Shown here in pieces: positions 4,348-64,000 of a stretch of 64,000 bases of DNA. A model generated the notes under the pieces. The model did not search any database and was not told the DNA's origin. It saw only the letters and a list, made by a program, of their open reading frames with translations. The translations under genes were made by a program, and so were the position numbers. Origin of the DNA: Escherichia phage Bf23; sequence record OR083247.1; one strand, written 5' to 3'. Positions within the stretch are counted from its first letter, which is position 1; each line of letters begins with the position of its first letter.

Positions 4348-4370
4348 TTTTTATTAGCTGAACTCTGATT

Positions 4371-4396
4371 ACCGAGTCATTTTGGCTCGGTTTTCT
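4371..4396 (+). terminator. Rho-independent terminator
   Basis: Stem ACCGAGTC / GGCTCGGT (one G-U pair), loop ATTTT, followed by TTTTCTCTGT. Confidence 0.55.
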
Positions 4397-4438
4397 CTGT
4401 GCTTAAAGACACTGATAGCACCTTTGGGAAAAATTTAC

Positions 4439-4480
4439 TTGCATGATGCCCAAAATCTTGATATAATATTTATATTGAAT
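4439..4480 (+). promoter_or_regulatory. sigma70 early promoter with extended -10, followed by an atypically long (about 490 nt) untranslated leader
   Basis: TTGCAT (4439-4444), 17-bp spacer, TGaTATAAT (-10 at 4462-4467), family leader TATTGAATTGAGAGA. Confidence 0.6.
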
Positions 4481-4964
4481 TGAGAGACATTAGTAAAAAT
4501 TGATTTTGCTAATTTTTCTTGTTTACAATCCGCGATACGGAACAGTTAGGCTGCCCCATTAAGGGTTGTTTTAACTATTACTAGTGTTTATATTGCATTA
4601 GTTAATCTTCAATTAAGTGATCTGTGTACCCTGAATTCGGAAAGGTAAATCCAAACCGTGCATATTTAGCTCGTTATATAGGCAGAGTTTTATATGGGGG
4701 TGCGAACGAAAAGAGCAGCGAATGGCGGCACGTACAGTAGTCACCTACCAATAGGATAGTGAGGACAAATAGAATCGGCTTAGCGGCCAATGACCTAGGT
4801 TCTATTCTGTATATGAGCGAAGAGAGCACAGCACTGAGATATGATAACTTATTCATATTGTTTGATGATAATTGATGTTTACGTAAATAGTAGTAATAGT
4901 TGTTCTATTCTTTCTGAATAGTCCTAAAGAAAAGATTTCGATTAACCAACATAGGAGTATTGTT

Positions 4965-53022: not shown

Positions 53023-53047
53023 ATAATCTCCTATTATAAAAATGTAT

Positions 53048-53095
53048 TTGCTTTTATCTCTCTATTTTGCTATAATAGACTCATAAATTAGAAAT
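53048..53095 (+). promoter_or_regulatory. sigma70 early promoter for llp
   Basis: TTGCTT (53048-53053), 17-bp spacer, TATAAT (53071-53076), leader TCATAAATTAGAAATGGAGAG. Confidence 0.65.
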
Positions 53096-53107
53096 GGAGA
53101 GATAAAT

Positions 53108-53374
53108 ATGAAAAAGTTTGTGATTGCACTAGTTGCCGCAGTTATGTTATCTGGTTGTGCACCTGCTCCCAAACCATTTTGTACGGGATTTGTAAAATCT
53201 TTTGGTGGTGCGGGAGAGGAACATTACGGTCTCAAGGTTCAGAAAGTTCGTATTAAGGGAGATCGCTTTCCAGTAGTACAGCTCCGTACTAAGTTTGGGT
53301 GGTGGGATCTCAGTCAGTTTGACCTTAAATACGGTGATTGTAAATTTAAACTAGAGCAATCTAATTACCTGTAA
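53108..53374 (+). CDS. llp: Lipoprotein, Llp-like superinfection-exclusion (receptor-blocking) protein
   Basis: Signal peptide with lipobox MLSGCAP; small size; divergent from the pb5-like gene. Confidence 0.7.
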   Translation: MKKFVIALVAAVMLSGCAPAPKPFCTGFVKSFGGAGEEHYGLKVQKVRIKGDRFPVVQLRTKFGWWDLSQFDLKYGDCKFKLEQSNYL

Positions 53375-53550
53375 TTAGTATAAAGCAAAAAGACATCCAA
53401 GTAAACTAAATTTTTTATTTCTTGGACGGTATACTGGCAGAAACCACTATATAAGAAAAGTAGAAGTCCTTCTAGGAGTTCACAGGCATGGTTGGTTGTG
53501 CACAAATTATAGACTATTTTAAATATCACAGTTATAGGAGCATGAAAGAT

Positions 53551-53679
53551 ATGTCAAACAAAAGAAAGAGCAGACGCGGAGAAGTGTATGATAGCTGGAT
53601 TAATAGTTTTGGACTTGGGACTATCCTATTCTTTATTTTCGTAGGTTTTTGGTTAGCAGCTATGGCGGGGTGGATTTAA
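53551..53679 (+). CDS. Small membrane protein (42 aa; start at ATG 53551 after RBS AGGAG)
   Basis: Basic N-terminus KRKSRRGE then hydrophobic helix GTILFFIFVGFWLAAMAGWI; first of four overlapping small ORFs. Confidence 0.4.
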   Translation: MSNKRKSRRGEVYDSWINSFGLGTILFFIFVGFWLAAMAGWI

Positions 53680-53786
53680 TGGAATGGGTAATTATTGCAT
53701 TGCTAGGGATTGTGATTATCGGGCAATGTATTTTAGATAATCACTTAGCTAGAATTGAAACTTTATTAACGGAGAAACGTAAATGA
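53679..53786 (+). CDS. Small membrane protein (35 aa; not in the ORF track)
   Basis: ATG overlaps the upstream stop (TAATG); MEWVIIALLGIVIIGQCIL.. hydrophobic helix. Confidence 0.35.
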   Translation: MEWVIIALLGIVIIGQCILDNHLARIETLLTEKRK

Positions 53787-53977
53787 TAGAAGTAGTAGCT
53801 ACACTAATAGTAATACTAGTCTGGGCAACTTTCATTGTTTCTTATAACGCGTATGTTCGCCTAAAAACTCTAGAAGCTCAAGTAAAACAACAACAATTTG
53901 CGCTAGAAAAATTAGTAGAACTGCAACGTTGTGATAGTACCCGCATTCTACAAATTGAGAGGGAATTAGATGTTTAG
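53783..53977 (+). CDS. Small membrane protein with coiled-coil tail (64 aa)
   Basis: ATGA overlap with the upstream ORF; N-terminal helix ATLIVILVWATFIV, then ..LKTLEAQVKQQQFALEKLVEL.. Confidence 0.45.
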   Translation: MIEVVATLIVILVWATFIVSYNAYVRLKTLEAQVKQQQFALEKLVELQRCDSTRILQIERELDV

Positions 53978-54215
53978 TATTATAGTTGCTTTTATTATCG
54001 GGATAATCGCGGGAGTTTTCGGAATGACTGCGGCTATTAACAAGCATCGTAAGTATACTGCGGAAGTATCGCGGGAGATTGCGGAGAGGGAGCGGAAGTT
54101 TGATGAGAAACGTGCGGAGTTTGAGCGGGAGTGGTCGGATGGATCTCGGGCGTCGCGGAAGAGATTTCGTGAGTTTAGACCTGAACATCGGTTTGATGAC
54201 CCTTCTATGCGCTAA
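53970..54215 (+). CDS. Small membrane protein with highly charged E/R/K-rich C-terminal helix (81 aa)
   Basis: 8-nt overlap with the upstream ORF; N-terminal helix IIVAFIIGIIAGVFGMTAAI, tail REIAERERKFDEKRAEFEREW; GAG/CGG-rich codons. Confidence 0.45.
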   Translation: MFSIIVAFIIGIIAGVFGMTAAINKHRKYTAEVSREIAERERKFDEKRAEFEREWSDGSRASRKRFREFRPEHRFDDPSMR

Positions 54216-54379
54216 TTAACTTTTTGCCAAATTTCATAAGATTACACATGAGGATGTGCTCACTGCCTCCGGCGAAAATACTTAGTCTGCTAACCGCCAC
54301 ACCCGTTATTATTACCATGCTAACTGTTTCACCCTGCAACCATTTTAATTGCAAGGTGAAACAATTTCAACCTTAATTA

Positions 54380-55114
54380 TTATGCGACTTTTAGTTTTTC
54401 AATATATTGTTGCGGGCTGCAACTATATTCTGCGCGTTCTTCCTCGGTCATACTTTCCCAACATAATTGCAAGCGATCGGCTAGGAACTGATAATCATTA
54501 TCATCGTCGAGCGATTCATCGATAAAGGTTTCACCTATCAATGTCACGCCGATTGATAGAATATCATTAATAGCTTGTGCGTCCAGCGTTTTAAACCCGT
54601 ATGATGCCGCCGCCGATAGCACGCCCTTATGATCATCAATCATCGTGAAATCAGCGTTTGGATATAGCTGTTTAAATAACTCAAAGTAATGGCTTTTATA
54701 TATAGCATCTTTACTGTGGTATATTTCGCTAACTTTATCAGCCTCAAAATATTTGTGTAGTGTGTCGCGGGAAAATACACGGATATTACTATCCCCACGC
54801 CCTCGCAGTCCTTGTTTGCGTAGGTAATAATAATCTGACTTACTCATCAGTCGAGCGGTACAAATAATGTTTAACGTGTTAACGTCATTCATACATTGGC
54901 GCATATATGTAACAAGCGGCAATAGTGTGTCCTGCATTATTAAATCATGTTTACATGCTTCATTCTTATATTTATTTAAATCTAAATTACCATCGTTATC
55001 AAAGCAAGGCGCTACGCGATGGAATGAGTTAACGATAGTGCCGTCCAGATCCCAGATCATGACGCGGGAAATATGCGGGAAATTACGGGTAATATTCGTT
55101 TTAACTTGATTCAT
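54380..55114 (-). CDS. dmp: 5'-deoxyribonucleotidase, HAD family, T5 Dmp-like (244 aa)
   Basis: HAD motif I in VMIWDLDGTIVNS; size and position among pre-early-type genes. Confidence 0.65.
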   Translation of the reverse strand: MNQVKTNITRNFPHISRVMIWDLDGTIVNSFHRVAPCFDNDGNLDLNKYKNEACKHDLIMQDTLLPLVTYMRQCMNDVNTLNIICTARLMSKSDYYYLRKQGLRGRGDSNIRVFSRDTLHKYFEADKVSEIYHSKDAIYKSHYFELFKQLYPNADFTMIDDHKGVLSAAASYGFKTLDAQAINDILSIGVTLIGETFIDESLDDDNDYQFLADRLQLCWESMTEEERAEYSCSPQQYIEKLKVA

Positions 55115-55188
55115 TTTGTTACGTTCTCCATTAAAGGGATTAAATTAAATTAATCCAGCCCACTGGATGGGCTGGGCTATTCCAGCTA

Positions 55189-55584
55189 TTAAAGACCATA
55201 AGCCAACGCATCAGCGATGACGGTAATATCTTCACCCGATACATCGGAACGGATGCCCGCGCATGTAAATACTTTTGCGCTCATTAGCTGATCATCAAGG
55301 CAAGCGGGACAAGGGGCAACTACTGCGAAAGCTAAACCTGATTTTACGGCATCGATGATAATCGTTTCTTGTTTCACCGTGTCAATATAAACGCCTTTCG
55401 CCTTGATGCGGCTGGATAACTTGCCCGTGGTATAGGCGAAAGTAGTGATCTGTAGCGCCTCGTTAAACTCGATTAAATCATCGACAACGTGACCGGCCTC
55501 AACGTGATACCGCTCACCATTAGAATAAACTAGGACGATAGAAGACTGAGCGCGATCGAATGGAATACGGTTAGAAATAGCCAT
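55189..55584 (-). CDS. Hypothetical protein (131 aa)
   Basis: ORF in the - strand pre-early chain; GC-richer codons. Confidence 0.5.
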   Translation of the reverse strand: MAISNRIPFDRAQSSIVLVYSNGERYHVEAGHVVDDLIEFNEALQITTFAYTTGKLSSRIKAKGVYIDTVKQETIIIDAVKSGLAFAVVAPCPACLDDQLMSAKVFTCAGIRSDVSGEDITVIADALAYGL

Positions 55585-55653
55585 GTTTATAACTCCAATT
55601 AATTTAATAAACTTTTATAGCGGCGGTATATTTCAACCGCCAACCTGATTTAT

Positions 55654-57318
55654 TTACGCAAAAAATTTACCATTCTTAAAGTCAATCAAGGTGCGCTGAC
55701 CGTTTGCATAGGTAATAACATGCGTTTGTGTCCAGCTTGACGCGCCAACGTTGTAACCCATGTCCAGACTACCAGACACGCCAGCGGTGTATACGCCGCC
55801 GTAAATACTGGCGGTATGAGTGTGCCCCGTGTTCAGTTTACCCAATTTCTTAAATTGCTTCGGATTGCCACGGCTCCCGTTAATGCCATTGTGACCGTGT
55901 ACGCCGCATTCAATGCCTGCAATCTTGAAAGATTGGTCAGTCGTTAGGAAAATGGCGTTAAACTCGCAACCTGCAACCTTGCGCAACGCATAATCTAGCA
56001 CGTTGAAAGTATCGTCTTTTTCTGCAATAGCTCCATAAATCGCGGCATTAAGGCGGTGATATAGTTCGGCGTTGGCTGGATCGTCTTTGATGTTAGCATT
56101 ACGATCATCCAGCCAACGGGATAGCGCCAGATCGTGGTTTGATTCTACGATGATCGTTTGAGAAAAATCGCGCTCCATTGATTCCAACACGCGACCGGTA
56201 TCGATAAGATCATCCAGAACTTTATCACGTCCGGCGGCGTATTGTTTTGCTAGGAATACACCCGAAGCGCGATTGTGATGGTTGCGTGATGTAAAATCAT
56301 GCACGTCATGGACAAATTGATATTTTGGTTTAAGAATATCAAGCAAGCTATTTTCGCCAGCCCATGACGCAGCGGCGCAATCATCATCCAGTTTTTCAGC
56401 GTGGACGTCGCCATATTGTAAACCTAAAACGTGCCCCGTTGTTTCATAGCATCCGGCGGGAGTAGCGCAAACATTCAGATCGTAAAAAACGCCGCTTTCG
56501 TCCATAGTTTCAAGCTGGCGCACAAAAAACTCACCGTCCTCGTCGAACTCGACAACAAGCGCACCGAAATTATGCAACGCTTCCGCTTTCTGTCCTGCTT
56601 TCTGCTGGATGTAGTTTTTTAGCGTTGCCGTGCCGGTTGAATACATACGGCGCACTACTTCACCTTTTAAAGCTGGGACGCTCTCGGCGGTGATTTTAGC
56701 CGCTCCAATTGCCAGACCTTCAAGGTTGAGCGCGGTTGCAGTTTCAGCAAATCCAGAAAGCGGATAATCTGCGGTAGGTAAAACGTTAATTTCAGCCATG
56801 AAAGCAAAGCGGCGATTATTCAAAAACACGTTTTTATTGCAGATATATTTGTCAAATGCGGAATCATATTTGATTCCTTCGGCGCCCTCGCCATTTTGAA
56901 AACCGTTTTTGTTATAAATAAACTTGCTAACCAGCAAATCAGCGCCGATATATTTAGCAAATTGCTCCAGTGAGGCTAAAAAGTTTTTATGCGGGAAAGT
57001 ATTATTCTGAATCGACGTAATAATAAAGCGTTTACCCTGCTTTACTTCCCAGCTTTCAACCGTGCTAGAAACAATCCCCGCCGCTTCTGGGCGCTCATCG
57101 TTTTTAATGGCTTTTGCTACTTTCGCCGCTTTCGGTTTAGCTGGTTTATTTGCTTCCAACCAATCACAAATCGCGGTCGAGTGTTTTGTAGTATCATAGA
57201 CCGCCTTTGATATATCGTCGCAGACTTCCAGTTTAGTGGCGCGCAGACGTTTACCATAGAAATTAAAGTCAGCGGCCATTTTCAGGATAACGGTTTGTTT
57301 TTCTGCGGAAATAATCAT
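55654..57318 (-). CDS. A1: Pre-early protein A1-like (554 aa), putative metallophosphoesterase-type nuclease
   Basis: Size close to that recalled for T5 A1; metallophosphatase-like His clusters (..GVHGHNGINGSRG.., ..GHTHTASIYGG..); neighbours dmp and A2-like genes. Confidence 0.65.
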   Translation of the reverse strand: MIISAEKQTVILKMAADFNFYGKRLRATKLEVCDDISKAVYDTTKHSTAICDWLEANKPAKPKAAKVAKAIKNDERPEAAGIVSSTVESWEVKQGKRFIITSIQNNTFPHKNFLASLEQFAKYIGADLLVSKFIYNKNGFQNGEGAEGIKYDSAFDKYICNKNVFLNNRRFAFMAEINVLPTADYPLSGFAETATALNLEGLAIGAAKITAESVPALKGEVVRRMYSTGTATLKNYIQQKAGQKAEALHNFGALVVEFDEDGEFFVRQLETMDESGVFYDLNVCATPAGCYETTGHVLGLQYGDVHAEKLDDDCAAASWAGENSLLDILKPKYQFVHDVHDFTSRNHHNRASGVFLAKQYAAGRDKVLDDLIDTGRVLESMERDFSQTIIVESNHDLALSRWLDDRNANIKDDPANAELYHRLNAAIYGAIAEKDDTFNVLDYALRKVAGCEFNAIFLTTDQSFKIAGIECGVHGHNGINGSRGNPKQFKKLGKLNTGHTHTASIYGGVYTAGVSGSLDMGYNVGASSWTQTHVITYANGQRTLIDFKNGKFFA

Positions 57319-57414
57319 AGTAATAAAGCTCCATTAAAGGGATTAAAAACGTTTGTTATTGGCAAATATTGCCAAATATAACGCCTTGAATAATAGGCGT
57401 TATAATTTGCAACA

Positions 57415-57612
57415 TTAATTTAAAGGCATAAGGCTAGAACTAACACCACAAGCAACGGCGGCAATAAAACAAATCAGACCTAAACGCTTTGCCAATTTAG
57501 ACTTACGCTTAAAATAATATGAATCTAAATCATTTTGAAAGTATGCAAATAATAATGAGGCCGCCATAATAAATAAGCCTAGAATTAACGATTCAGTGGG
57601 GTAAAAGATCAT
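57415..57612 (-). CDS. Small membrane protein (65 aa; start moved to ATG 57612 with RBS GGAG)
   Basis: Two hydrophobic helices; the upstream in-frame extension to 57660 would read through a perfect 20-bp palindrome. Confidence 0.4.
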   Translation of the reverse strand: MIFYPTESLILGLFIMAASLLFAYFQNDLDSYYFKRKSKLAKRLGLICFIAAVACGVSSSLMPLN

Positions 57613-57669
57613 TTTAATAACTCCAGTCAAAGGGAAATTATAGTGGGGAATATTCCCCACTAATTAAAT

Positions 57670-58086
57670 TTATTCACCTGCGGCTTGTTTTACTTCATCG
57701 GCAACGCCTAACAGTTGCGCCACGGCGTCCAGCGTTTCTAACTTTGCGCTTTCCAGACTTGCCAAATCGTCGGCGTCTTTGATAATGCCGGAATCAATAG
57801 CATGTTTAGCGATAACGCGTACATAATGAGCTTTGCGAATTGAACTACCGCCGCCAACTTTGCGCGGCTTATCGCTTTTCTGATACGCTTTCGCGCTGGT
57901 CAATTTTGAGCGAACAGACACGGGAGAAGCCGCGCCAACTGTTTTAGCAATCTCTTTCAGGCCGTCGCTGTTGGCGAACTCCAAGCCGTTTTCGTTGATC
58001 AACTGTTGATACATGGTAACAGCCTGTTGGGTGTTTTCTTCATTCCAAGCAAATTTTGCGGATTTTTCGGTTTTAACGTTAGCCAT
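57670..58086 (-). CDS. A2: Pre-early protein A2-like, putative DNA-binding protein (138 aa)
   Basis: Size and position relative to the A1-like gene; Lys/Ala-rich. Confidence 0.55.
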   Translation of the reverse strand: MANVKTEKSAKFAWNEENTQQAVTMYQQLINENGLEFANSDGLKEIAKTVGAASPVSVRSKLTSAKAYQKSDKPRKVGGGSSIRKAHYVRVIAKHAIDSGIIKDADDLASLESAKLETLDAVAQLLGVADEVKQAAGE

Positions 58087-58184
58087 GATTATAACTCCTA
58101 TTGAATTAATTTAAGGGATAAGATTAACATAATGTTAATCGTTATATACCCCAAACTACTGGGGTATATAAAGTTAACACTAAG

Positions 58185-58436
58185 TTATAAAACAGCTTCC
58201 CATTTTTCGTTGCGTTGAACAACCTTTACAACGTCGCCGGATTTAACGCGAACGCTAAAAACGGTTTTGCCGTTGTTACTACGTTCATTTTCAGCGTATA
58301 CCGCGTCGATTGTATCAAACGGCATAAGCGCCACACCTTTAATGCGTTCGGTTTTTCCGGTTAATTCGTCCGTTTTAGTAACGAAAGGAATAAAAACGGA
58401 TTGACCAATTTTAGGCGCGGTAATAACGTTTTTCAT
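58185..58436 (-). CDS. Hypothetical protein (83 aa)
   Basis: ORF with RBS AGGAG; leader contains a 10-bp-stem hairpin. Confidence 0.45.
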   Translation of the reverse strand: MKNVITAPKIGQSVFIPFVTKTDELTGKTERIKGVALMPFDTIDAVYAENERSNNGKTVFSVRVKSGDVVKVVQRNEKWEAVL

Positions 58437-58663
58437 AGTATAAACTCCTAGTTATTTGGGGATTGTTCCGCATTACCTGCTAGAAAGTAGCAGGTAATAA
58501 GAAAAAATCCGCTCGCCAATATAATCAATTTAAAGAACTCCACTCAGGCCGCTATATCCCAGTTAGGGGGCGGGACACATTATGGTAAGTGCCGACCGTC
58601 AAATTGTATCAAGTTATCGCTCTTATCGAACTGGGTACATCTTAAAGCCTATCGGCTAGGGTG

Positions 58664-58867
58664 TCAAACAATTTTTTGCAGTTTTTTATGATTTTCTTTC
58701 AGGTCAATCATAATATTTCGCCAGATCATTTCCAGACCTTGCTGGCGGCCTTTCTTGTACTGCGTGAATCTATATCTTACGGATTGTTGAGCTACTGTCA
58801 ACAATTTTTTAGTAGTAACATCTAATTTTTTAGCTGGTTTACCAGTGATCAAAAGCGTTTGTTTCAT
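58664..58867 (-). CDS. Small basic protein (67 aa) bracketed by 24-bp inverted repeats
   Basis: Lys/Arg/Gln-rich ORF with RBS AAGGA; inverted repeats at 58633-58654 and 58904-58927. Confidence 0.4.
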   Translation of the reverse strand: MKQTLLITGKPAKKLDVTTKKLLTVAQQSVRYRFTQYKKGRQQGLEMIWRNIMIDLKENHKKLQKIV

Positions 58868-59320
58868 ATCTGCGATTCCTTATATAATTGATAAGTTTAC
58901 CGCCGATAGACTTTAAGATGTACCCAATTTTTAAAGAGCGTGGCGGTAAACTTCCCGCCGTGTAGTTCGTCATTGCCGCCCTACGAGATAAATAATAGGG
59001 GATTCCCAAAAATGGCGCAACCTTATTTTTGTAAAGAAACGTAAAGAAAGCAAATACTCGCAAGGTGTCCGGCGATTGCCCAAGTTTAAAGGAAACGGGC
59101 GCACGAATACCATAAAACCCAGCAGGTTGGCAAGTAATTTTTTCATTTATATTTGCCTTACCCTACTTGACAAAATCTAAAAAGCTCGTGGTAGCGATAA
59201 ACGAGGGTAGGCAATGCAATGGCCTGGCTAAAACTTTCATCGCGTTCTAGGGCGTTTTAGGCGCATTCTAGCCTTGTTGATAACTTATCCCCAGAAGCAA
59301 AAATGAAATTTTCCTAGTTA

Positions 59321-59351
59321 TCCACTTGACTTTTATTTTCCAGTGGATAAC
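59321..59351. promoter_or_regulatory. Inverted pair of DnaA-box-like sequences
   Basis: AGTTATCCACT..AGTGGATAACT around a 14-bp AT-rich centre. Confidence 0.5.
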
Positions 59352-59494
59352 TACTTATTTTATGAAATAAATTAATTGACTTTTATTTGTTAGTATGCAT
59401 CGGAAAGATAGCAGACTAATAATTGCTAGGATGATAATCATGCTGGTGGATTGTAACGGCTTAAACTATCAGCGGACTATTAATCACGGAAAAT

Positions 59495-59545
59495 CTCGTT
59501 AGCTAACTAACTATTTCATGATGTATAATATACATATAAATTAAT
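59495..59545 (+). promoter_or_regulatory. Early-family sigma70 promoter facing the + strand cassette
   Basis: TATAAT (59524-59529) with the family leader ATATAAATTAATGAGAAATAA; -35 is weak (AGCTAA). Confidence 0.5.
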
Positions 59546-59633
59546 GAGAAATAATAATTATAATAAATAATAACTACAGTAAATAATAACTATAAGAAAC
59601 TATCGGCCTAAGTGAGAACCACTATCATTTAAG

Positions 59634-59741
59634 TTATCCACAAGTTTATTAACAGCACAAAATGATTTGACACGATAGGCGGCGATATAAAGACTTATCC
59701 ACAGACTTATCCACAGGTTATCCTACTGTATAAATATACAG
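59634..59741. promoter_or_regulatory. Cluster of three consensus DnaA boxes plus a LexA-box-like palindrome
   Basis: TTATCCACA at 59634-59642, 59695-59703 and 59707-59715; CTGTATAAATATACAG (CTGT-N8-ACAG) at 59726-59741. Confidence 0.6.
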
Positions 59742-60007
59742 GGTAAATGGGTAGTGTTAACAACTGCAATCAATTTTAAGCGGCCTAAAACGCTTTCTAA
59801 CGAGCTAAATGCGGTGGGGTAATATTAAAGTAAAGCCTTCACCCGTCGCCCTGGTGGCTTCGCCGTGTTTTGCTCTTTACTATACCGCTGCGCGGTTAAC
59901 ATAAAAATAAGCGTTAGGCAAGGAAAATAAAAAGGTAAAATAATATTTGCCCCTAGAAAGAAAATACCTTTATCATTCACTCACCGATTAACGAGGGAGG
60001 CCAACAA

Positions 60008-61000
60008 ATGAGGCTATATAAACCAGATAACGCAACCGTCTTAAAAGGTGCGCTGCGTAACCTGCTGGACGGTAGCAGAACAACCAGCATTAAACACTTT
60101 GTTAACAAGGCCGAAGATATTCACCAAAACTTTTTTGATGATTTCGATGCCTATGATATGAGTAGTTTTTTACAACTGTATAAGCAAGGGGCAACGCTTG
60201 TTTTGTATAATCGAGATAATCACCTGCTTACTAGTAGGGGGCCGGATACCGATTTCATAATTGTAAAAGGTAGCACAGTAAAAGCCTATGACACTGGAGC
60301 GGGCTTAGAAGTTTTTTCAATAGAAAACTATGAAGCCAACCCCAATGATCTTTATGACGTTGAAAACTTTCTTGATTCATTTTGGCGTTATTTATCCGTT
60401 GGCTGGAATCGGTCAATTGGTGACGGGTATCGTCTGGCGGCTGTAATGACCTTTGATGATGATGGCAATTTTTTGCTACCGTCGGAAGTATACCCATACG
60501 TATATGATGGGGATATAGAAAGCGCGGGCTTTTCTTTCTGGAAAGAGGGGAATCAGCCTATTGACAACACGGAAAAACATGCTGTAAATTCTAACACTCA
60601 AAGCGTTAATACTCAAATCACTGAAAACAAAGGAAAAAACACCATGACCAAGATCGCTAATATTGTTGCCGCTAATAAATCCGCTGTTGTAAACGCTGCA
60701 AAACTGGAAGCGGGTAAAATTGCACTGACTCAAATTACGAAAGTAGCGGCTAAAAAAGCGCCGTTCATGATCAAAGGCTATATTGATACGCCGATTGGTC
60801 GAGTAGTGATTGCCAACCTGCTTAGCGTAGCGGTTGACCAGTACGCCCCGAGTAACCAGAAAGCGAAAGCGGTAGCAGGGGCAGCTATGGAAGCGGCAAT
60901 GCTAGAAATGGTGCAAAGTTTTAACATCGCTGAGATGATCGATGAAATGGTAAAAGGTATCGATATTTCTACTTTCACCGTTAACAACGAAAGCGAGTAA
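60008..61000 (+). CDS. Hypothetical protein (330 aa)
   Basis: ORF with RBS GAGGGAGG; Ala/Lys-rich C-terminal half; no motif. Confidence 0.5.
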   Translation: MRLYKPDNATVLKGALRNLLDGSRTTSIKHFVNKAEDIHQNFFDDFDAYDMSSFLQLYKQGATLVLYNRDNHLLTSRGPDTDFIIVKGSTVKAYDTGAGLEVFSIENYEANPNDLYDVENFLDSFWRYLSVGWNRSIGDGYRLAAVMTFDDDGNFLLPSEVYPYVYDGDIESAGFSFWKEGNQPIDNTEKHAVNSNTQSVNTQITENKGKNTMTKIANIVAANKSAVVNAAKLEAGKIALTQITKVAAKKAPFMIKGYIDTPIGRVVIANLLSVAVDQYAPSNQKAKAVAGAAMEAAMLEMVQSFNIAEMIDEMVKGIDISTFTVNNESE

Positions 61001-61065
61001 TAATATTAAGCGGGGATTGTTACCCCGCTTTAATGTTCCCTTGTTAATTAATAGGAGGCTAATTA

Positions 61066-61560
61066 ATGGCTGAAGAAAAATATGGCTTCTCACTGGGAGA
61101 AGTGAGCACGGCAAAACATGATATGATCATTTTGGTCGATTGCCATACTGGCTATTGCGGAGAAGGTTGGACGGAGGAACATTTTGTTCCAGCTGGCTGT
61201 AATCTGGACGCTTTCGCTCAGGAAATGGCTATTGATAATGCTTCTCGTTTTGGTAGCGATGGTTACGAAGACGAAGAAACTGGCGAATGGTATGAAAATG
61301 AAAACGTATATGCAAGCCTTTATCATTATCAGCTAAGTAAATCCGGCACATATGTAAACGGCGGCGATCCTATTAATTCCGTCATGAAATTAATTATTAA
61401 ATATGGCGGAGTAGAGATAGTTGGTAACAAAGCGGTAATATACGCAAACCGATTAAAACAGCTTGTTTATATTCCTGATAGTACCCGATGGGATGAATAT
61501 GCTGTTTTGCATGACGAATTGAAACGATGTTTCAATATTGAAACCTTACAAGTAGTCTAA
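61066..61560 (+). CDS. Hypothetical acidic protein (164 aa)
   Basis: ORF with RBS AGGAGG; no motif. Confidence 0.5.
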   Translation: MAEEKYGFSLGEVSTAKHDMIILVDCHTGYCGEGWTEEHFVPAGCNLDAFAQEMAIDNASRFGSDGYEDEETGEWYENENVYASLYHYQLSKSGTYVNGGDPINSVMKLIIKYGGVEIVGNKAVIYANRLKQLVYIPDSTRWDEYAVLHDELKRCFNIETLQVV

Positions 61561-61664
61561 TGTAAAGTTTTGTAAAGGTCGCCTTTTATGGTGGCCTTTT
61601 TTGTTATAATGCTTTTACACCAAAACGGTGGATTGAAAATTTCCCAAAAATTTGGAGGCTTAAA

Positions 61665-61895
61665 ATGGTTGCATATTCTTCTTCTGACGCTCTTTTCACT
61701 GGAAAAGGCTGGGTATCAAATCGCTGGATCATTCATGAAATGGTGCAAGAATACGGCATTGCTAAAACTTACACTACCATCCAGGCGCTTTATGATAATG
61801 ATCAAATTGATCAGCAAACGGCTGGTTTTTTGCTGGATACCCTGAAAGCGGAGCACTGTACTAAAAAACAAGCCGCCAAAATTGTTTTAATGTAA
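61665..61895 (+). CDS. Hypothetical protein (76 aa)
   Basis: ORF with RBS GGAGG upstream. Confidence 0.4.
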   Translation: MVAYSSSDALFTGKGWVSNRWIIHEMVQEYGIAKTYTTIQALYDNDQIDQQTAGFLLDTLKAEHCTKKQAAKIVLM

Positions 61896-61941
61896 TTAAT
61901 AACGGGGCGTTACTTTCGCCCCGCTAACTAGGAGAATGAAA

Positions 61942-62091
61942 ATGGTTATTTTTCGAGCTATTCTAGCAGGTATCTTGGGCGCTATTTTATCCCTTTTTGC
62001 TATAGCTTTTGGCGTTCACGCGGTTACTATTGGTGCTGGCATTGCTGTATTTTCTTATCTGCTGGGCTGCATGACTAGTAAAGGAGAATAA
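61942..62091 (+). CDS. Small hydrophobic membrane peptide (49 aa; not in the ORF track)
   Basis: RBS AGGAGAA then ATG; MVIFRAILAGILGAILSLFAIAFGVHAVTIGAGIAVFSYLLGCM.. Confidence 0.35.
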   Translation: MVIFRAILAGILGAILSLFAIAFGVHAVTIGAGIAVFSYLLGCMTSKGE

Positions 62092-62093
62092 AA

Positions 62094-62306
62094 ATGATCC
62101 GCAACGTTTCTCTTGCACGTTCGAAAGGCTTTAAGCTGGTGGATGTTAACACGTTCGAGCGGGAAGATTGTAAAATCGAATATGTAGCACGTAATAAAAA
62201 TGCCTTTCGTGTTACCGAGAAAAAATTCGATAAGCGGGGCAACGTGATAGCTGAAACGGTTAAACATTTTGCCACCTTTTACGCTGCATTTCGTGGGGTA
62301 CTATGA
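62094..62306 (+). CDS. Hypothetical basic protein (70 aa)
   Basis: ORF with RBS AGGAGAA upstream. Confidence 0.4.
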   Translation: MIRNVSLARSKGFKLVDVNTFEREDCKIEYVARNKNAFRVTEKKFDKRGNVIAETVKHFATFYAAFRGVL

Positions 62307-62427
62307 AAAGCGTTATTGTTGTTATCCTTGCAATGGTTGGAGGTTTTACCGCCACCTTATTTAAGAATGACCCCCTTTTACTGGGGGTTTTTATGCTTTT
62401 ATCTGGATACCTGATTGGGAGGTTATA
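62303..62427 (+). CDS. Small membrane peptide (41 aa; not in the ORF track)
   Basis: ATGA overlap with the upstream ORF; MKSVIVVILAMVGGFTATLF..LLGVFMLLSGYLIG. Confidence 0.3.
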
Positions 62428-62429
62428 AA

Positions 62430-62774
62430 ATGGTTATTTATGAAGGCAACCGCTTTGTTACTAATTGCCGTCCGGCATTACTAGCAAACTACTTAAATCA
62501 GCTTTCCCCAGCTTATAAGGGCGTCATTAATATTTATGAAGGCAAGGCGCATTATAAAATTAATGCGGTCGTTGCCCGTGAACTAGCGTTTCAATTTTTG
62601 ACCTTTGCATCTTGTGATATTCAGGTCATGGGTGAGGCGTTAATTGCAGAAAATGAAGATGATTTTATTAATATTTTTCGCAAAGTATGCACCGAGCGCC
62701 TGATAATGAAAGGCGCATATATTCAATCCACTGCGGATAGTATTGAAACAGCGTTTCGAAAGGTGGCACAATGA
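62430..62774 (+). CDS. Hypothetical protein (114 aa; start at ATG 62430 after RBS GGGAGG)
   Basis: ORF 62415-62774 in the track, trimmed to the ATG with a proper RBS. Confidence 0.45.
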   Translation: MVIYEGNRFVTNCRPALLANYLNQLSPAYKGVINIYEGKAHYKINAVVARELAFQFLTFASCDIQVMGEALIAENEDDFINIFRKVCTERLIMKGAYIQSTADSIETAFRKVAQ

Positions 62775-62874
62775 AATTATATATTTTCGCGGGTAATGTT
62801 GAGGCTGCAAATGATTCCGCTGGTGGCGATAACGTTCGCCACTATTGGCAAAAATATATTTACTAGGCGTTATT

Positions 62875-63069
62875 ATGAGCAATAAAATTATTATAACTAA
62901 AACTACCACAATGGTTGACGTTTTTTATGTGCCCGATACGCTGGAAAACCGGCGAGCGGTCGAGCGGGGCGAATATGATAGCGTTATTTATGATGCCGAT
63001 GGTTACTACCGGCATTTGGTCGATTCCTATGGGGAGGAGGAGAAGATCACGCATCAATTACCGGACTGA
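62875..63069 (+). CDS. Hypothetical protein (64 aa from ATG 62875)
   Basis: ORF 62845-63069 in the track begins at a TTG; the internal ATG is preferred. Confidence 0.4.
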   Translation: MSNKIIITKTTTMVDVFYVPDTLENRRAVERGEYDSVIYDADGYYRHLVDSYGEEEKITHQLPD

Positions 63070-63210
63070 TAACAAGCGGGGAGCAGATCCCCGTTTTTCA
63101 CGCCTCCAGTTAAATACCCCTTTGTTTTAGTATCCCCACCAAAATTAAACGCGTTAGAATGCGATTCAGGACGTTTTAGGCGTATATTAGAATTATTCAC
63201 TACGTAGGAA

Positions 63211-63320
63211 TACTGTATAAATATACAGTAGAATAACTTGGGGATAAGTCTGTGGATAACGCCTCAAAATGGCTGGGATTCTGTCAAGTCAAATCGTGCT
63301 GTTAATAAGTCTGTGGATAA
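63211..63320. promoter_or_regulatory. LexA-box-like palindrome plus two consensus DnaA boxes, in inverted orientation relative to 59634-59741
   Basis: TACTGTATAAATATACAGTA at 63211-63230; TGTGGATAA (reverse complement of TTATCCACA) at 63251-63259 and 63312-63320. Confidence 0.6.
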
Positions 63321-63351
63321 CTTAAATAACAGTGTTTCTCACTTCCGTTTT

Positions 63352-63507
63352 TAAATGCGAATCATTATCATTCGCATTTCACTATCTAACCGATAATCAT
63401 TCCACTTTTTAAATGAGATTGATTCTCATTTCACTTTCTAAATGCGAATTATTATCATTCTCATTCCGCTTTTTAAATGAGAATGATTCTTATTATCATT
63501 CTCATTT
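63352..63507. repeat. Cluster of four related palindromic repeats (AAATG(C/A)GAAT..ATTC(G/T)CATTT units)
   Basis: Four units, each an inverted repeat with 10-13-bp arms around a short AT spacer, at about 63352-63380, 63411-63432, 63440-63468 and 63474-63507. Confidence 0.7.
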
Positions 63508-63531
63508 AGCGCAGGGCAATTGCCCTGCGCT
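63508..63531. repeat. Perfect 24-bp GC-rich palindrome containing two GCGC tetramers
   Basis: AGCGCAGGGCAATTGCCCTGCGCT, followed by TTTTG on the + strand. Confidence 0.7.
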
Positions 63532-63533
63532 TT

Positions 63534-63756
63534 TGTGCAAATCCGACATTTGCTCCAAGGGTTACGTGCTGGCGTATATGTGCAAATCCGACAATTTTTG
63601 GTAGTGTGCAAATCCGACCCGAAAAATTTTTATAGTGTGCGAATCCGACAATGAATTTTCCTAAAAACTCCAGCAATCACGAACTGCGTTCGAATCCTGT
63701 GGGATATGTGCAAATCCGACACGGTTTTTCTAGGGTTAAGATGTGCGAATCCGACA
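63534..63756 (+). repeat. Iteron-like array: six direct copies of TGTGC(A/G)AATCCGAC(A) with irregular AT-rich spacers
   Basis: Copies at 63534, 63579, 63605, 63636, 63707 and 63742, plus one degenerate copy near 63688; spacers 11-56 bp, usually ending in a T-run. Confidence 0.75.
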
Positions 63757-64000
63757 AGATTTTTGTGACTTCGATGGGAGGGTGTGTGATTGTATAGGTT
63801 TGAGGGGAAGATGAGAGAGCGAGAAAAATTTGAGGGGATAGAAGGATGTGGGCGCAGGATTGGTGCGGAGCACCTGATTTGCGGGGATTTTGGGGAAGAG
63901 TTGAGATAATTTGGGAAGATTTGAGATAGGTGCAGAAAAAGTAAAATTTTATTAGCAAAATGGGGCAAAATAGCTTGACAAGTGAAAATTCTTGTGGATC

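What the first reader, a model, noticed from the sequence alone, without database searches (positions are those of the whole stretch)
53551..54215. Translationally coupled micro-operon of four tiny membrane proteins next to llp
Four consecutive ORFs (42, 35, 64 and 81 aa) overlap by TAATG, ATGA and 8-nt overlaps. Each has one hydrophobic helix; two carry coiled-coil or highly charged E/R/K-rich tails. Two are below the ORF-track size cut-off. The last ORF uses GAG/CGG-rich codons unlike the AT-rich flanks. Sitting beside the receptor-blocking lipoprotein at the start of the pre-early-like region, this could be an unrecognised membrane-acting module (exclusion, channel formation or host envelope manipulation).
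Basis: seen in the sequence. Interest (0 to 1): 0.55.

Follow-up and report, generated by a model that had tools for sequence, protein, structure and literature searches.

The report
Conserved small membrane-protein cassette in BF23
Four tiny, back-to-back genes next to the receptor-blocking gene of phage BF23 are real and conserved, but they were already annotated as membrane-protein genes of unknown function; the odd codon usage of the last one comes from a regularly spaced CGG pattern in the DNA that does not seem to have been described.

Summary
The window is the right 64 kb of phage BF23, a T5 relative. The four ORFs (53551-54215) exist as described: overlaps TAATG, ATGA and 8 nt, and one strong hydrophobic helix each. 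They are intact in all 25 related loci, keep their coupled junctions, and are under purifying selection (dN/dS 0.12-0.36). They are not unrecognised: the 2006 BF23 record lists them as Orf1-4, T5 has T5p157/158, and each has its own PHROG family. They lie just outside the right terminal repeat, so they are not pre-early genes. Published Bas33 RNA-seq shows transcription only after second-step DNA transfer. All four families are confined to T5-like phages, and no curated family matches, so function is inferred only. The likeliest reading is a small inner-membrane complex with cytoplasmic tails, co-expressed with llp. The cassette is modular: ORF1, then 1-3 ORF2/ORF3-type paralogues, then ORF4. 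ORF4's codon bias is real and conserved. It reflects 13 CGG triplets on a 10.5-nt lattice, in alternating reading frames, unique in the genome. The opposite strand is one of the two strongest C-rich, G-poor tracts in the window and lies downstream of the convergent dmp gene, so I favour a Rho-type terminator. Overall: ordinary genes, with an interesting embedded DNA signal.

The parts
53048..53076 (+). llp promoter (-35 TTGCTT, -10 TATAAT), the probable source of rightward transcription through llp and ORF1-4 in BF23
   Evidence: Annotated in DQ097178; sequence read. No terminator-like site and no stable structure lie between llp and ORF1 (z = 0.17).
53108..53374 (+). llp, receptor-blocking lipoprotein (88 aa)
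   Evidence: 100% identical to the DQ097178 llp; PHROG 1119 Cor-type exclusion protein; Pfam lipobox.
53551..53679 (+). ORF1, 42 aa: basic N-terminus (5 K/R) and a C-terminal TM helix, predicted tail-anchored with the N-terminus in the cytoplasm
   Evidence: PHROG 8596 full length, E = 3.8e-32; dN/dS 0.12; found in 447 phage records; AGGAG 10 nt upstream; topology.
53679..53786 (+). ORF2, 35 aa: N-terminal TM helix and an amphipathic tail ending in KRK; starts at the TAATG junction and has no SD of its own
   Evidence: PHROG 6369, E = 2.8e-26; dN/dS 0.21; no SD in 24 of 26 loci; an extra paralogue (ORF2b) is present in L003 and L016.
53783..53977 (+). ORF3, 64 aa: N-terminal TM helix and a coiled-coil tail with an invariant C-terminal ...RI.Q.ERELDV; optional member and probable paralogue of ORF2
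   Evidence: PHROG 5851, E = 2.4e-34; absent from 7 of 25 loci; found in 312 records; hhalign ORF2 versus ORF3 gives 71% probability, E = 3.6e-5.
53970..54215 (+). ORF4, 81 aa: glycine-zipper TM helix (G11, G15, G18) running into a long charged helix, with invariant INKHR-Y and E-EW-D-S--SR-RF motifs and a variable tail after residue 67
   Evidence: PHROG 6447, E = 1.5e-46; found in 443 records; AlphaFold model is a single helix over residues 2-68, pLDDT 71; invariant columns; an exhaustive profile search finds only T5-like members.
53999..54158 (.). Phased CGG array inside ORF4: 13 CGG on a 10.5-nt lattice (consensus K-CGG-R-A-G), in alternating reading frames, with A/T triplets roughly in antiphase
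   Evidence: Rayleigh power is 11.8 of a maximum 14; none of 20,000 synonymous-codon permutations reaches it. Window codon usage predicts 2.0 +/- 1.3 CGG against 14 observed. The array is unique in the roughly 114 kb scanned. It is conserved in all 26 distinct ORF4 sequences.
53884..54235 (-). C-rich, G-poor ('C>G bubble') tract on the strand opposite ORF4: candidate Rho-utilisation zone for leftward transcripts leaving the terminal repeat
   Evidence: Second-largest of 1,547 bubbles in the window (area 4869, peak 38.5%, (YC)N9-13 chain of 11). The antisense RNA is unstructured. The antisense 118-aa ORF is not conserved.
54257..64000 (.). Right terminal repeat (pre-early region); ORF4 ends 41 nt to its left
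   Evidence: rTR annotated from the position equal to window 54256 in DQ097178. BF23's repeat is 9,743 bp (PMC10644984). DT57C's left end lies 123 nt beyond the dmp stop.
54322..54366 (-). Stable 18-20 bp hairpin without a U-tract, immediately after the dmp stop codon
   Evidence: Inverted repeat I1; it forms in both the MFE and the centroid fold of the - strand RNA.
54380..55114 (-). dmp (5'-deoxyribonucleotidase), the last gene of the leftward pre-early unit, convergent with ORF1-4
   Evidence: ORF list; annotated as dmp in relatives.

Best explanation
ORF1-ORF4 are four genuine genes for very small single-pass inner-membrane proteins. They form an accessory cassette specific to T5-like phages (Markadamsvirinae), at the right end of the unique region between llp and the right terminal repeat. 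SHOWN: the ORFs are intact, translationally coupled and under purifying selection in all relatives. The cassette is modular: ORF1, then one to three ORF2/ORF3-type paralogues, then ORF4. It is independent of which receptor/llp type precedes it. It lies outside the terminal repeat, and in a close relative it is transcribed only after second-step DNA transfer. INFERRED: in BF23 it is transcribed mainly by read-through from the strong llp promoter, and ribosomes pass from ORF to ORF by termination-reinitiation. By the positive-inside rule, ORF1 is tail-anchored (N-terminus in) and ORF2-4 are N-out/C-in, so nearly all non-membrane mass faces the cytoplasm. The products probably assemble into a small hetero-oligomer through their TM helices (glycine zipper in ORF4) and coiled or charged tails. 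This complex would act on a receptor-independent inner-membrane process. My best guess is a companion to Llp in 'lytic conversion': blocking or resealing the inner-membrane step of DNA entry, or stabilising the infected cell's membrane. Separately, ORF4's G-ending codons are not a protein feature. They build a conserved, 10.5-nt-phased CGG array that makes the opposite strand one of the two strongest C-rich, G-poor tracts in the window. I interpret this as a Rho-dependent termination zone. It would stop leftward pre-early (dmp) transcripts in the right-repeat or concatemer copy from running antisense through the cassette and llp into the late receptor-binding and terminase genes.
For: Coding and coupling. 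Prior annotation and family membership. Lineage restriction. Modularity and paralogy. Topology and helices. Independence from llp type: homology with T5-type loci starts only about 50 nt before ORF1. No terminator or structure between llp and ORF1. Position outside the repeat. Expression: Bas33 RNA-seq at 20 min gives ORF2b 162/137, ORF3 462/408 and llp 219/127 TPM, all about 0 when infection stops after first-step transfer, while dmp stays on (PMC13250531). Not the lysis cassette. DNA layer: codon bias; lattice statistics; conservation of the lattice through amino-acid changes; genome-wide uniqueness. There is no CGG-reading tRNA-Arg among the phage tRNAs annotated in the first 50 kb of DT57C, which includes its tRNA cluster. 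The antisense C>G bubble ranks second of 1,547 and contains a (YC)N9-13 chain of 11. In PMC6144790, all tested bubbles longer than 78 nt terminated in vitro. The order dmp stop, U-less hairpin, then bubble is shown. No conserved overlapping ORF exists. An equivalent G>C peak lies 298 nt from dmp inside an unrelated ORF in Klebsiella phage IME260.
Against: No experiment or homology links the proteins to any function, so the exclusion/membrane role rests on position and architecture only. With 0-3 periplasmic residues they could not contact an incoming tail tip the way known exclusion proteins do. The RNA-seq was counted without strand specificity. It gives implausibly low counts for ORF1 and ORF2 (1-2 reads) and a dip at ORF4 (13-22 TPM), so per-gene expression and the sense/antisense split are unresolved. 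For the terminator reading: natural rut sites are not this regular. CC start-to-start spacing of 10-11 nt gives 8-9-nt linkers, at the low edge of the 9-13-nt range. The third-ranked 80-nt C-over-G window lies inside an ordinary gene, so the signature is not specific. The synonymous-site conservation test is only a trend (p = 0.06). Where genes are inserted between ORF4 and the repeat, the tract stays in ORF4, 470-865 nt from dmp. Vibrio phage phi 3 has no such tract.
Confidence: 0.5

Rival explanations
1. The CGG array is a protein-wrapping or recognition site in DNA, not an RNA signal. A phased, anisotropically bendable segment at the junction between the unique region and the terminal repeat would be bound by the small terminase (a pac-like site that helps define the repeat's left boundary), by DNA gyrase (a strong gyrase site), or by another phage DNA-binding protein.
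For: The period is exactly 10.5 nt, with A/T triplets also periodic (power 6.9) and about 143 degrees out of phase with CGG. This is the pattern described for the 130-bp gyrase wrapping motif and the Mu strong gyrase site (PMC6379681). The array is unique in the genome. It lies 100-260 nt left of the repeat boundary. The only comparably G-rich tract lies 70-270 nt left of the repeat's other boundary. Natural ORF4 deletions of exactly 7 aa (21 nt, two periods) preserve the phase.
Against: The distance to the repeat boundary is not fixed: 41 nt to more than 600 nt from the ORF4 stop, because of insertions. The two G-rich tracts share no sequence similarity, and the second has no CGG lattice. No T5 terminase or gyrase site has been mapped here, and I found nothing on it in the literature. 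Alpha-helical periodicity (3.5 aa = 10.5 nt) contributes part of the signal: the permutation null has mean power 4.2, against 1 expected for random positions.
Confidence: 0.2
2. The G-ending, rare-codon and SD-like content of ORF4 is a translational device. Slow codons (CGG has no phage tRNA) and internal GGAG motifs would pause ribosomes while the N-terminal TM helix emerges, giving this very short protein time to be targeted to the membrane before termination.
For: Six CGG codons and no phage tRNA-Arg(CCG) among the tRNAs annotated in the first 50 kb of DT57C. SD-like 4-mers occur at 4.1 per 100 nt, against 0.83 in the background. The biased stretch (codons 31-67) is where a TM helix at residues 1-23 would be leaving the exit tunnel (inference).
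Against: More than half of the lattice CGGs are not codons: they straddle two codons in frames 1 and 2. The lattice starts inside the TM-coding part, at codon 10. SD-like density is high but not unique: 7 per 170 nt, against a maximum of 8 elsewhere. ORF1-3, which face the same targeting problem, lack the bias (third-position G 0.11-0.24). Pausing does not predict a 10.5-nt period.
Confidence: 0.12
3. The cassette regulates lysis timing, for example as antiholin-like partners of the T4-T-type holin of T5-like phages, rather than taking part in exclusion or membrane maintenance.
For: T5-like phages carry a T-type holin. In T4, by my own knowledge, that holin class is controlled by small proteins: RI, which is membrane-tethered, and RIII, an 82-aa cytoplasmic protein. 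ORF2-4 have small cytoplasmic helical domains on a membrane anchor.
Against: The cassette is about 80 kb from the holin, endolysin and spanin genes. There is no similarity to any holin, antiholin or spanin profile in PHROGs, Pfam or NCBIfam. As far as I know, lysis inhibition has not been described for T5.
Confidence: 0.1
4. The ORFs are not translated; the region is non-coding DNA or RNA with chance ORFs.
For: Two ORFs are under 45 aa. The Bas33 RNA-seq table assigns only 1-2 reads to ORF1 and ORF2.
Against: The frames are intact and the junctions conserved in 25 loci across two genera. dN/dS is 0.12-0.36. The third-position excess of variation is typical of coding sequence. SD motifs sit at correct spacing. 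There is no RNA structure signal and no Rfam match. The neighbouring ORF2b and ORF3 have hundreds of TPM.
Confidence: 0.02

Closest known systems
BF23 Orf1-Orf4 (DQ097178, 2006); T5 T5p157/T5p158; PHROGs 8596, 6369, 5851, 6447
   Same: They are the same genes: 100% identity for Orf1-3 and 97.5% for Orf4, with full-length PHROG matches.
   Different: Nothing beyond 'hypothetical' or 'membrane protein' is recorded. Orf1 is annotated 21 codons too long. The Orf4 C-terminus differs in the old record (76 aa versus 81 aa). Some records mislabel ORF3 as 'tail assembly protein'.
Small phage inner-membrane superinfection-exclusion proteins (T4 Imm, P22 SieA, HK97 gp15; named from my own knowledge)
   Same: They are small, phage-encoded inner-membrane proteins expressed during infection. 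Here the genes sit beside a known exclusion gene (llp).
   Different: There is no sequence similarity to any annotated exclusion family. ORF1-4 are predicted to expose 0-3 residues to the periplasm, so any effect would have to work through TM helices or from the cytoplasmic face. The function is untested.
Bitopic TM + coiled-coil proteins (FtsL, FtsB/DivIC, ZapG/YhcB, LapA)
   Same: The architecture is the same: an N-terminal TM helix followed directly by a long helix. There are weak sub-threshold profile hits (LapA_dom 20.4 bits, ZapG 17.8, DivIC 13.4, FtsL 14.1).
   Different: All scores are well below the curated cut-offs. The proteins here are much shorter. The predicted orientation (tails in the cytoplasm) differs from FtsL and FtsB. 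The resemblance is compositional.
Rho-dependent terminators defined by C>G bubbles and (YC)N9-13 arrays (PMC6144790)
   Same: The antisense strand of ORF4 has a bubble of 275 window positions, against a criterion of more than 78. It has a peak C-minus-G of 38.5% and a YC chain of 11. It is unstructured and untranslated, and it lies downstream of a gene that ends in a U-less hairpin.
   Different: It is far more regular than described rut sites (a strict 10.5-nt lattice). It is embedded antisense in a conserved coding sequence. Rho dependence has not been tested.
Phased G/C wrapping motifs (130-bp gyrase motif, Mu strong gyrase site; PMC6379681)
   Same: There is a 10.5-nt periodic alternation of G/C-rich and A/T-rich triplets over about 160 bp, at a unique location in a phage genome.
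   Different: No gyrase cleavage core was identified. The periodic element is the specific trinucleotide CGG on one strand, not general G/C content. Binding has not been tested.

Membership tests
PHROG 8596 / 6369 / 5851 / 6447 (T5-like small proteins, unknown function) | Full-length match to the family profile | tested here: met
   E = 3.8e-32, 2.8e-26, 2.4e-34 and 1.5e-46, each covering the whole profile.
T5 pre-early (first-step-transfer) genes | Located inside the terminal repeat | tested here: not met
   ORF4 ends at 54215 and the repeat starts at about 54257.
T5 pre-early (first-step-transfer) genes | Expressed when only the first-step DNA has entered the cell | tested here: not met
   In Bas33, the cassette orthologues have about 0 TPM under daunorubicin arrest, while dmp remains expressed (PMC13250531 Dataset S1).
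Holin | Profile similarity to a holin family and a position in the lysis cassette next to the endolysin | tested here: not met
   No holin hit in PHROGs, Pfam or NCBIfam. The T-type holin and the endolysin lie at 18-19 kb in DT57C.
Spanin (i-spanin / o-spanin) | N-terminal TM helix with a long periplasmic coiled coil, paired with an outer-membrane lipoprotein gene in the lysis region | tested here: not met
   The tails are 16-57 aa and predicted to be cytoplasmic. Rz-like spanins are annotated elsewhere. There are no profile hits.
Known superinfection-exclusion protein families | Profile similarity to an annotated exclusion family | tested here: not met
   Only llp matches one (PHROG 1119). 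ORF1-4 match none.
Known superinfection-exclusion protein families | Expression reduces plating or DNA entry of the same or related phages | not testable with these tools
   This needs plasmid expression and plating assays. One lead: an llp-only clone gave about 100-fold protection, against more than 10^6-fold reported earlier for BF23 llp by Mondigler et al.; the authors give no reason (PMC4728585). I could not check what the earlier clone contained.
Pfam LapA_dom / ZapG-like / DivIC | Score at or above the Pfam gathering threshold | tested here: not met
   20.4 versus 28; 17.8 versus 33.5; 13.4 versus 28.9 bits.
Rho-dependent terminator (antisense of ORF4) | C>G bubble longer than 78 nt containing at least four YC dimers spaced by 9-13 nt | tested here: met
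   Bubble at 53884-54235, area 4869, peak 38.5%, chain of 11; second of 1,547 bubbles. Criteria from PMC6144790.
Rho-dependent terminator (antisense of ORF4) | The RNA is untranslated and unstructured on that strand | tested here: met
   The antisense ORF is broken by stops in nearly all relatives. The centroid fold leaves the tract unpaired; z = -0.88.
Rho-dependent terminator (antisense of ORF4) | Transcript 3' ends that depend on Rho | not testable with these tools
   The available RNA-seq was counted without strand specificity. This needs 3'-end mapping with and without bicyclomycin.
Phased protein-wrapping DNA site (gyrase or terminase type) | About 10.5-bp alternation of G/C-rich and A/T-rich elements over 100 bp or more | tested here: met
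   CGG power is 11.1 and WWW power 6.9 at 10.5 nt, with a phase difference of 2.5 rad.
Phased protein-wrapping DNA site (gyrase or terminase type) | Specific binding or cleavage by the protein | not testable with these tools
   No data were found for T5-like phages.
T5 nick site (5'-R/GCGCRGG-3') | Exact consensus on the nicked strand | tested here: not met
   No consensus site lies in 53551-54215. The sites are at 23359(-), 55256(-) and 63509/63524, among others. Consensus from PMC3517423.

The most novel reading that the evidence does not exclude
ORF4 is dual-use DNA. Across Tequintavirus and Epseptimavirus, selection has kept a 13-unit CGG array with a helical (10.5-nt) period, unique in the genome, written through two reading frames and through both the TM and the charged parts of a conserved protein. 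It uses codons the phage otherwise avoids and has no tRNA for. The array would be a cis-acting element at the junction of the unique region and the terminal repeat. It could be an unusually regular Rho-loading site that insulates late genes from pre-early transcription in the right-repeat or concatemer copy. Or it could be a protein-wrapping site that helps define the repeat boundary during replication or packaging. An equally G-rich, but non-homologous, tract just inside the repeat's other boundary hints at a paired arrangement.
Probability: 0.4. Interest if true: 0.6.

Novelty: already known. Interest (0 to 1): 0.35.

Why it matters
The cassette itself adds little. It is one of many uncharacterised small membrane-protein gene sets in T5-like phages, and it has been in the databases since 2006. 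It is still a clean target for deletion or expression tests: it is core to about 450 sequenced phages used in therapy and biocontrol research, it sits beside the only known exclusion gene of the family, and it is independent of receptor type. The embedded CGG array is the more useful lead. How T5-like phages insulate the two copies of their 10-kb terminal repeat transcriptionally is poorly understood, and so is how the repeat boundaries are recognised during replication and packaging. A conserved, genome-unique, strand-asymmetric element 100-260 nt from a boundary gives a specific sequence that can be recoded synonymously without touching the protein. It also warns that codon-usage anomalies in tiny phage genes can report overlapping nucleic-acid signals rather than foreign origin.

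Tried and rejected
(1) Nick site: the T5 major-nick consensus R/GCGCRGG does not occur in the cassette. Exact sites fall where the known 64.8% and 99.5% nicks are expected.

(2) Hidden overlapping gene as the cause of synonymous constraint: the 118-aa antisense ORF and the 46-aa alternative-frame ORF are interrupted in most relatives.

(3) Structured RNA: there is no fold signal for the llp-ORF1 spacer (z = 0.17), the ORF4 sense strand (z = 0.23) or the antisense strand (z = -0.88), and no Rfam hit.

(4) Tandem repeat or recent duplication: TRF finds nothing. The 25-nt direct repeats are only 68-80% alike.

(5) G-quadruplex: the GGG runs are too far apart (12-59 nt loops; read).

(6) Homology between the ORF4 tract and the G-rich tract at the repeat's right end: the alignment score equals the shuffle mean.

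(7) Specificity of the C-over-G signature for operon ends: the third-ranked window lies inside an ordinary gene.

(8) Distant protein homologues: three word-indexed searches and one exhaustive profile search found only T5-like phages. There were no PADLOC or NCBIfam hits. I did not run a fold search, because a single helix is uninformative.

(9) Sequence homology between ORF3/ORF4 and the Klebsiella IME260 TM ORFs at the same position: none.

(10) Gene-essentiality data: HIDEN-SEQ does not cover T5-like phages. The CRISPRi-ART paper could not be queried for 'T5' because the term is too short. No supplement is held for the BF23 genome paper.

(11) Lysis cassette: rejected on location.
Full report
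IDENTITY OF THE WINDOW. The stretch 53000-54400 is 99.8% identical to GenBank DQ097178 (phage BF23 hrs-llp region) and 91-94% identical to many Tequintavirus genomes. BF23 has a 114,544-bp genome with 9,743-bp terminal repeats (PMC10644984). The old record marks the right terminal repeat (rTR) from the position equal to window 54256. The left end of the DT57C genome lies 123 nt beyond the dmp stop, which corresponds to window 54257. The window is therefore the right 64 kb of BF23, ending at the genome end. The gene order is hrs (receptor-binding protein, - strand), llp (+), ORF1-4 (+), the rTR boundary, then dmp, A2-like and A1 (- strand).

THE OBSERVATION. The four ORFs and their overlaps are exactly as described. 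Each protein has one strongly hydrophobic 17-mer (mean Kyte-Doolittle 2.3-2.8). ORF1 has a basic N-terminus and a C-terminal TM helix. ORF2-4 start with the TM helix after 0-3 residues and carry K/R just after it. The positive-inside rule therefore predicts that all soluble parts are cytoplasmic. The ORF3 tail fits a heptad register. ORF4 is modelled as one continuous helix over residues 2-68 with a disordered end (pLDDT 71).

ARE THEY GENES? Yes. In 25 loci from the viral contig collection, plus DT57C and the old BF23 record, every copy present is intact. The junctions are the same (-1, -4 and -8 nt). Where ORF3 is missing (7 loci), ORF2 couples directly to ORF4 by TAATG. Pairwise dN/dS is 0.12 (ORF1), 0.21 (ORF2), 0.36 (ORF3) and 0.35 (ORF4, inflated by its mosaic tail). 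Third codon positions vary most in all four. ORF1, ORF3 and ORF4 have SD motifs at 7-10 nt. ORF2 has none in 24 of 26 loci, so it must be reached by termination-reinitiation. The 42-aa ORF1 start is the conserved one.

ARE THEY UNRECOGNISED? No. They are Orf1-Orf4 in DQ097178. ORF3 and ORF4 are T5p157 and T5p158. Each ORF matches its own PHROG family end to end, and only ORF4's carries a label, 'membrane protein'. tblastn finds ORF1 in 447 phage records, ORF4 in 443, ORF3 in 312 and ORF2 in 190; the last count is limited by the 35-aa query.

HOW FAR DO THE FAMILIES REACH? Only to T5-like phages. This holds for word-indexed searches of 5.8 billion proteins with ORF4, ORF1 and an ORF3 profile. 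It also holds for an exhaustive HMM search of 1.84 billion cluster representatives with an ORF4 profile, which returned 5 hits. Pfam, NCBIfam and PADLOC give nothing above threshold. The weak LapA, ZapG, DivIC and FtsL hits reflect 'TM helix + charged helix' composition.

ANATOMY OF THE CASSETTE. Homology between BF23-type and T5-type loci, whose llp genes are unrelated, begins only about 50 nt upstream of ORF1. The cassette is therefore a backbone element, independent of receptor type. It is modular.
- L003 and L016 (and Bas33) carry an extra 51-aa paralogue of ORF2, joined by TAATG on both sides.
- ORF2 and ORF3 profiles align with 71% probability, E = 3.6e-5.
- phiR2-01 has ORF1, an ORF3-type gene and ORF4 only.
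- ORF4 has invariant G11/G15/G18, a juxtamembrane INKHR-Y motif and a C-terminal E-EW-D-S--SR-RF motif. After residue 67 at least four alternative tails occur, and two natural deletions are exactly 7 aa.
- In Klebsiella phage IME260 (Sugarlandvirus) the same position holds a 74-aa and an unannotated 151-aa TM + coiled-coil ORF with no detectable similarity to ORF3 or ORF4.
- Vibrio phage phi 3 has nothing comparable.

EXPRESSION. In BF23 the annotated llp promoter (TTGCTT-17-TATAAT, 53048-53076) is followed by no terminator-like site and no stable structure before ORF1, so read-through is the simplest model. T5 has a candidate extended -10 promoter (TTTACA-17-TG-TAGAGT) just before ORF1. Published RNA-seq of Bas33/HildyBeyeler at 20 min (PMC13250531, Dataset S1) gives, for the two replicates, llp 219/127 TPM, ORF2b 162/137, ORF3 462/408 and ORF4 22/13. 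All fall to about 0 when daunorubicin arrests infection after first-step transfer, while dmp remains expressed. That places the cassette outside the pre-early class. The counts were not strand-specific. The 1-2 reads for the 108-129-nt ORF1 and ORF2 are probably an assignment artefact, so I do not over-read the individual values.

WHAT IT IS NOT. It is not the lysis cassette: the T-type holin, endolysin and Rz-like spanins lie at 18-21 kb in DT57C. It is not pre-early. It is not a nick site.

MOST LIKELY ROLE OF THE PROTEINS (inference). A set of bitopic proteins made in fixed proportion by coupling, with a glycine-zipper helix and coiled or charged cytoplasmic tails, most plausibly forms a small hetero-oligomer on the cytoplasmic face of the inner membrane. 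It follows llp in both receptor types and is conserved across hosts. I therefore favour a receptor-independent companion function to Llp: blocking or resealing the inner-membrane step of DNA entry, or stabilising the infected membrane. An antiholin-like role for the T-type holin is a weaker alternative. None of this has been tested. One loose lead: an llp-only clone protected about 100-fold, against more than 10^6-fold reported earlier, and the authors could not explain the difference (PMC4728585). I could not establish what the earlier clone contained.

THE CODON ANOMALY. This is the most interesting part. ORF4 uses CGG for 6 of 13 Arg (1% elsewhere), GCG for 6 of 8 Ala and TCG for 3 of 6 Ser. 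Third-position G is 62% in codons 31-67, against 16% in the background. Among the phage tRNAs annotated in the first 50 kb of DT57C, which holds the tRNA cluster, there are Arg(ACG) and Arg(UCU) but no CGG reader.

The bias resolves into a lattice. CGG occurs at 53999, 54010, 54020, 54031, 54061, 54072, 54082, 54093, 54115, 54126, 54136, 54147 and 54156, which fills 13 of 16 points of a 10.5-nt lattice. The reading frames alternate (GCG-GAG for Ala-Glu, CGG-GAG for Arg-Glu, ATC-GGG, TTC-GGA), and the lattice spans both the TM and the charged parts.
- Rayleigh power at 10.5 nt is 11.8 of a possible 14.
- None of 20,000 permutations of synonymous codons within ORF4 reaches it. The null mean is 4.2, which shows that helix periodicity contributes only part of the signal.
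- Window codon usage predicts 2.0 +/- 1.3 CGG, against 14 observed.
- No other 170-nt window in the BF23 window or in the other 50 kb of DT57C has more than 7 CGG or CCG, or a power above 4.1.

The lattice is present in all 26 distinct ORF4 sequences (10-15 CGG, 0-1 CCG, best period 10.5-10.6). It survives amino-acid changes (Ala to Thr via GCG to ACG, Ala to Ser via GCG to TCG, Glu to Gly, and Thr-Ala to Leu-Gly). Deep-pair synonymous divergence is about half that of the other ORFs (0.28 versus 0.47-0.63). Lattice codons have lower synonymous entropy than other degenerate codons (0.26 versus 0.47), but only at p = 0.06. No conserved overlapping ORF exists.

WHAT THE ARRAY MIGHT DO. On the opposite strand the tract reads CU(U/C)CCGC every 10-11 nt, with 39% C and 15% G, and it is unstructured. 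By the published C>G-bubble definition, it is the second-largest of 1,547 bubbles in the window and holds a chain of 11 suitably spaced YC dimers. The largest bubble is at the repeat's right end, on the same strand. In the reference study, all tested bubbles longer than 78 nt terminated in vitro (PMC6144790). The layout is dmp stop, then a 20-bp U-less hairpin (54366-54322), then the repeat boundary, then the bubble. This is what one expects of a Rho-dependent terminator, but the need for it exists only in the right-repeat or concatemer copy, because in the left copy the DNA ends 65 nt past the hairpin. The G>C peak lies 260-285 nt from the dmp 3' end in the basic layout. An equivalent peak lies 298 nt from dmp in IME260, inside an unrelated ORF.

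Against this reading: the regularity is unlike known rut sites, the signature is not specific, and the tract stays in ORF4 when insertions move it 470-865 nt away. The strict helical period, with A/T triplets in near-antiphase, fits equally well a DNA segment that wraps a protein, as in gyrase sites (PMC6379681) or terminase recognition sites. A translational-pausing role fits worst, because most lattice CGGs are not codons.

VERDICT. The genes are ordinary for this phage family. As far as my searches show, it is undescribed and deserves a simple recoding experiment.

Noticed in passing
window 63730-63930: This is the G-richest, C-poorest tract of the whole window (G 0.44, C 0.07), built from TTTGAGGGGA / TTTGGGGAAGA-type repeats, 70-270 nt from the right genome end. 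On the - strand it is the largest C>G bubble of the window (area 6803, YC chain of 20). It has no sequence similarity to the ORF4 tract and no CGG lattice.
   Followed up: partly
window 63300-63760: Dense repeat field near the end of the terminal repeat: six or more copies of GTGCRAATCCGACA, several AAATGMGAAT...ATTCKCATTT palindromes, a DnaA-box-like TGTGGATAA at 63312, and a palindrome (63509-63530) carrying the T5 nick consensus GCGCAGG on both strands. It matches the published description of the injection-stop-signal region.
   Followed up: partly
window 54322-54366: An 18-20 bp near-perfect inverted repeat lies directly after the dmp stop, inside the first 110 nt of the terminal repeat. 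It is followed by no U-tract on either strand. A promoter-like site pointing left (TTGAAA-17-TAAAAT, 54370 to 54342) overlaps it and is conserved in T5 (L015 3401 to 3373).
   Followed up: partly
L003:2555-2710, L016:2555-2710 (and bas33_0190): An extra 51-aa paralogue of ORF2 (MEWVIIGIFVLL...RIETLLEERK) is inserted between ORF1 and ORF2, with TAATG junctions on both sides. The cassette therefore expands by duplicating its middle unit.
   Followed up: yes
L029:3719-4174 and 4162-4641 (Klebsiella phage IME260): There is an unannotated 1-kb gap before the right terminal repeat. It holds a 151-aa TM + coiled-coil ORF with a Ser/Gly-rich tail, containing a CGG run (spacing 10, 11, 31, 11, 11, 32...) and the repeated unit CTCGGGAAGTTCTCGG. 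It also holds a 159-aa HNH-like ORF that carries the locus's strongest G>C peak, 298 nt from dmp.
   Followed up: partly
L028:2537-2671 (Yersinia phage phiR2-01): The ORF1 homologue (44 aa) is not annotated in the RefSeq record. This phage has no separate ORF2, and ORF1 couples directly to an ORF3-type gene that begins MEWV...
   Followed up: yes
window 54180-54215 versus L001:3020-3040: The 2006 BF23 record gives Orf4 as 76 aa with a different end (97.5% identity over 81 aa), presumably a sequencing difference near the 3' end. Across phages, the ORF4 tail after residue 67 exists in at least four unrelated versions, and the stretch from ORF4 to the repeat is a hotspot for inserted genes (HNH endonucleases and others).
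   Followed up: partly
database annotations of ORF3 and ORF4 homologues: ORF3 is labelled 'tail assembly protein' in many records and UniRef clusters. Truncated ORF4 homologues are labelled 'tail fiber protein' or 'H-N-H endonuclease'. Nothing in the sequences supports these names; they look like propagated annotation errors.
   Followed up: partly
Bas33 RNA-seq, PMC13250531 Dataset S1 (bas33_0187-0191): Within one apparent operon, the TPM values are ORF1 0.8/1.0, ORF2b 162/137, ORF2 0.5/1.2, ORF3 462/408, ORF4 22/13, and the downstream HNH gene 525/444. The near-zeros are probably read-assignment artefacts for genes of 108-129 nt. The 20-fold dip over the 246-nt ORF4 is unexplained; it could be G-rich coverage bias or a real transcript boundary.
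   Followed up: no
window 53580-53760: ORF1's 3' end and ORF2 also show a strong G>C skew (0.51-0.52). The antisense of ORF1-3 (53398-53866) is the fifth-largest C>G bubble on the - strand. The whole cassette is therefore strand-asymmetric, not just ORF4.
   Followed up: partly
PMC4728585 (Golomidova et al. 2016), section 3.2.1: A clone carrying only DT57C llp reduced plating about 100-fold, whereas more than 10^6-fold was reported earlier for BF23 llp. The authors give no reason. Whether the earlier construct included Orf1-4 could not be checked here.
   Followed up: no
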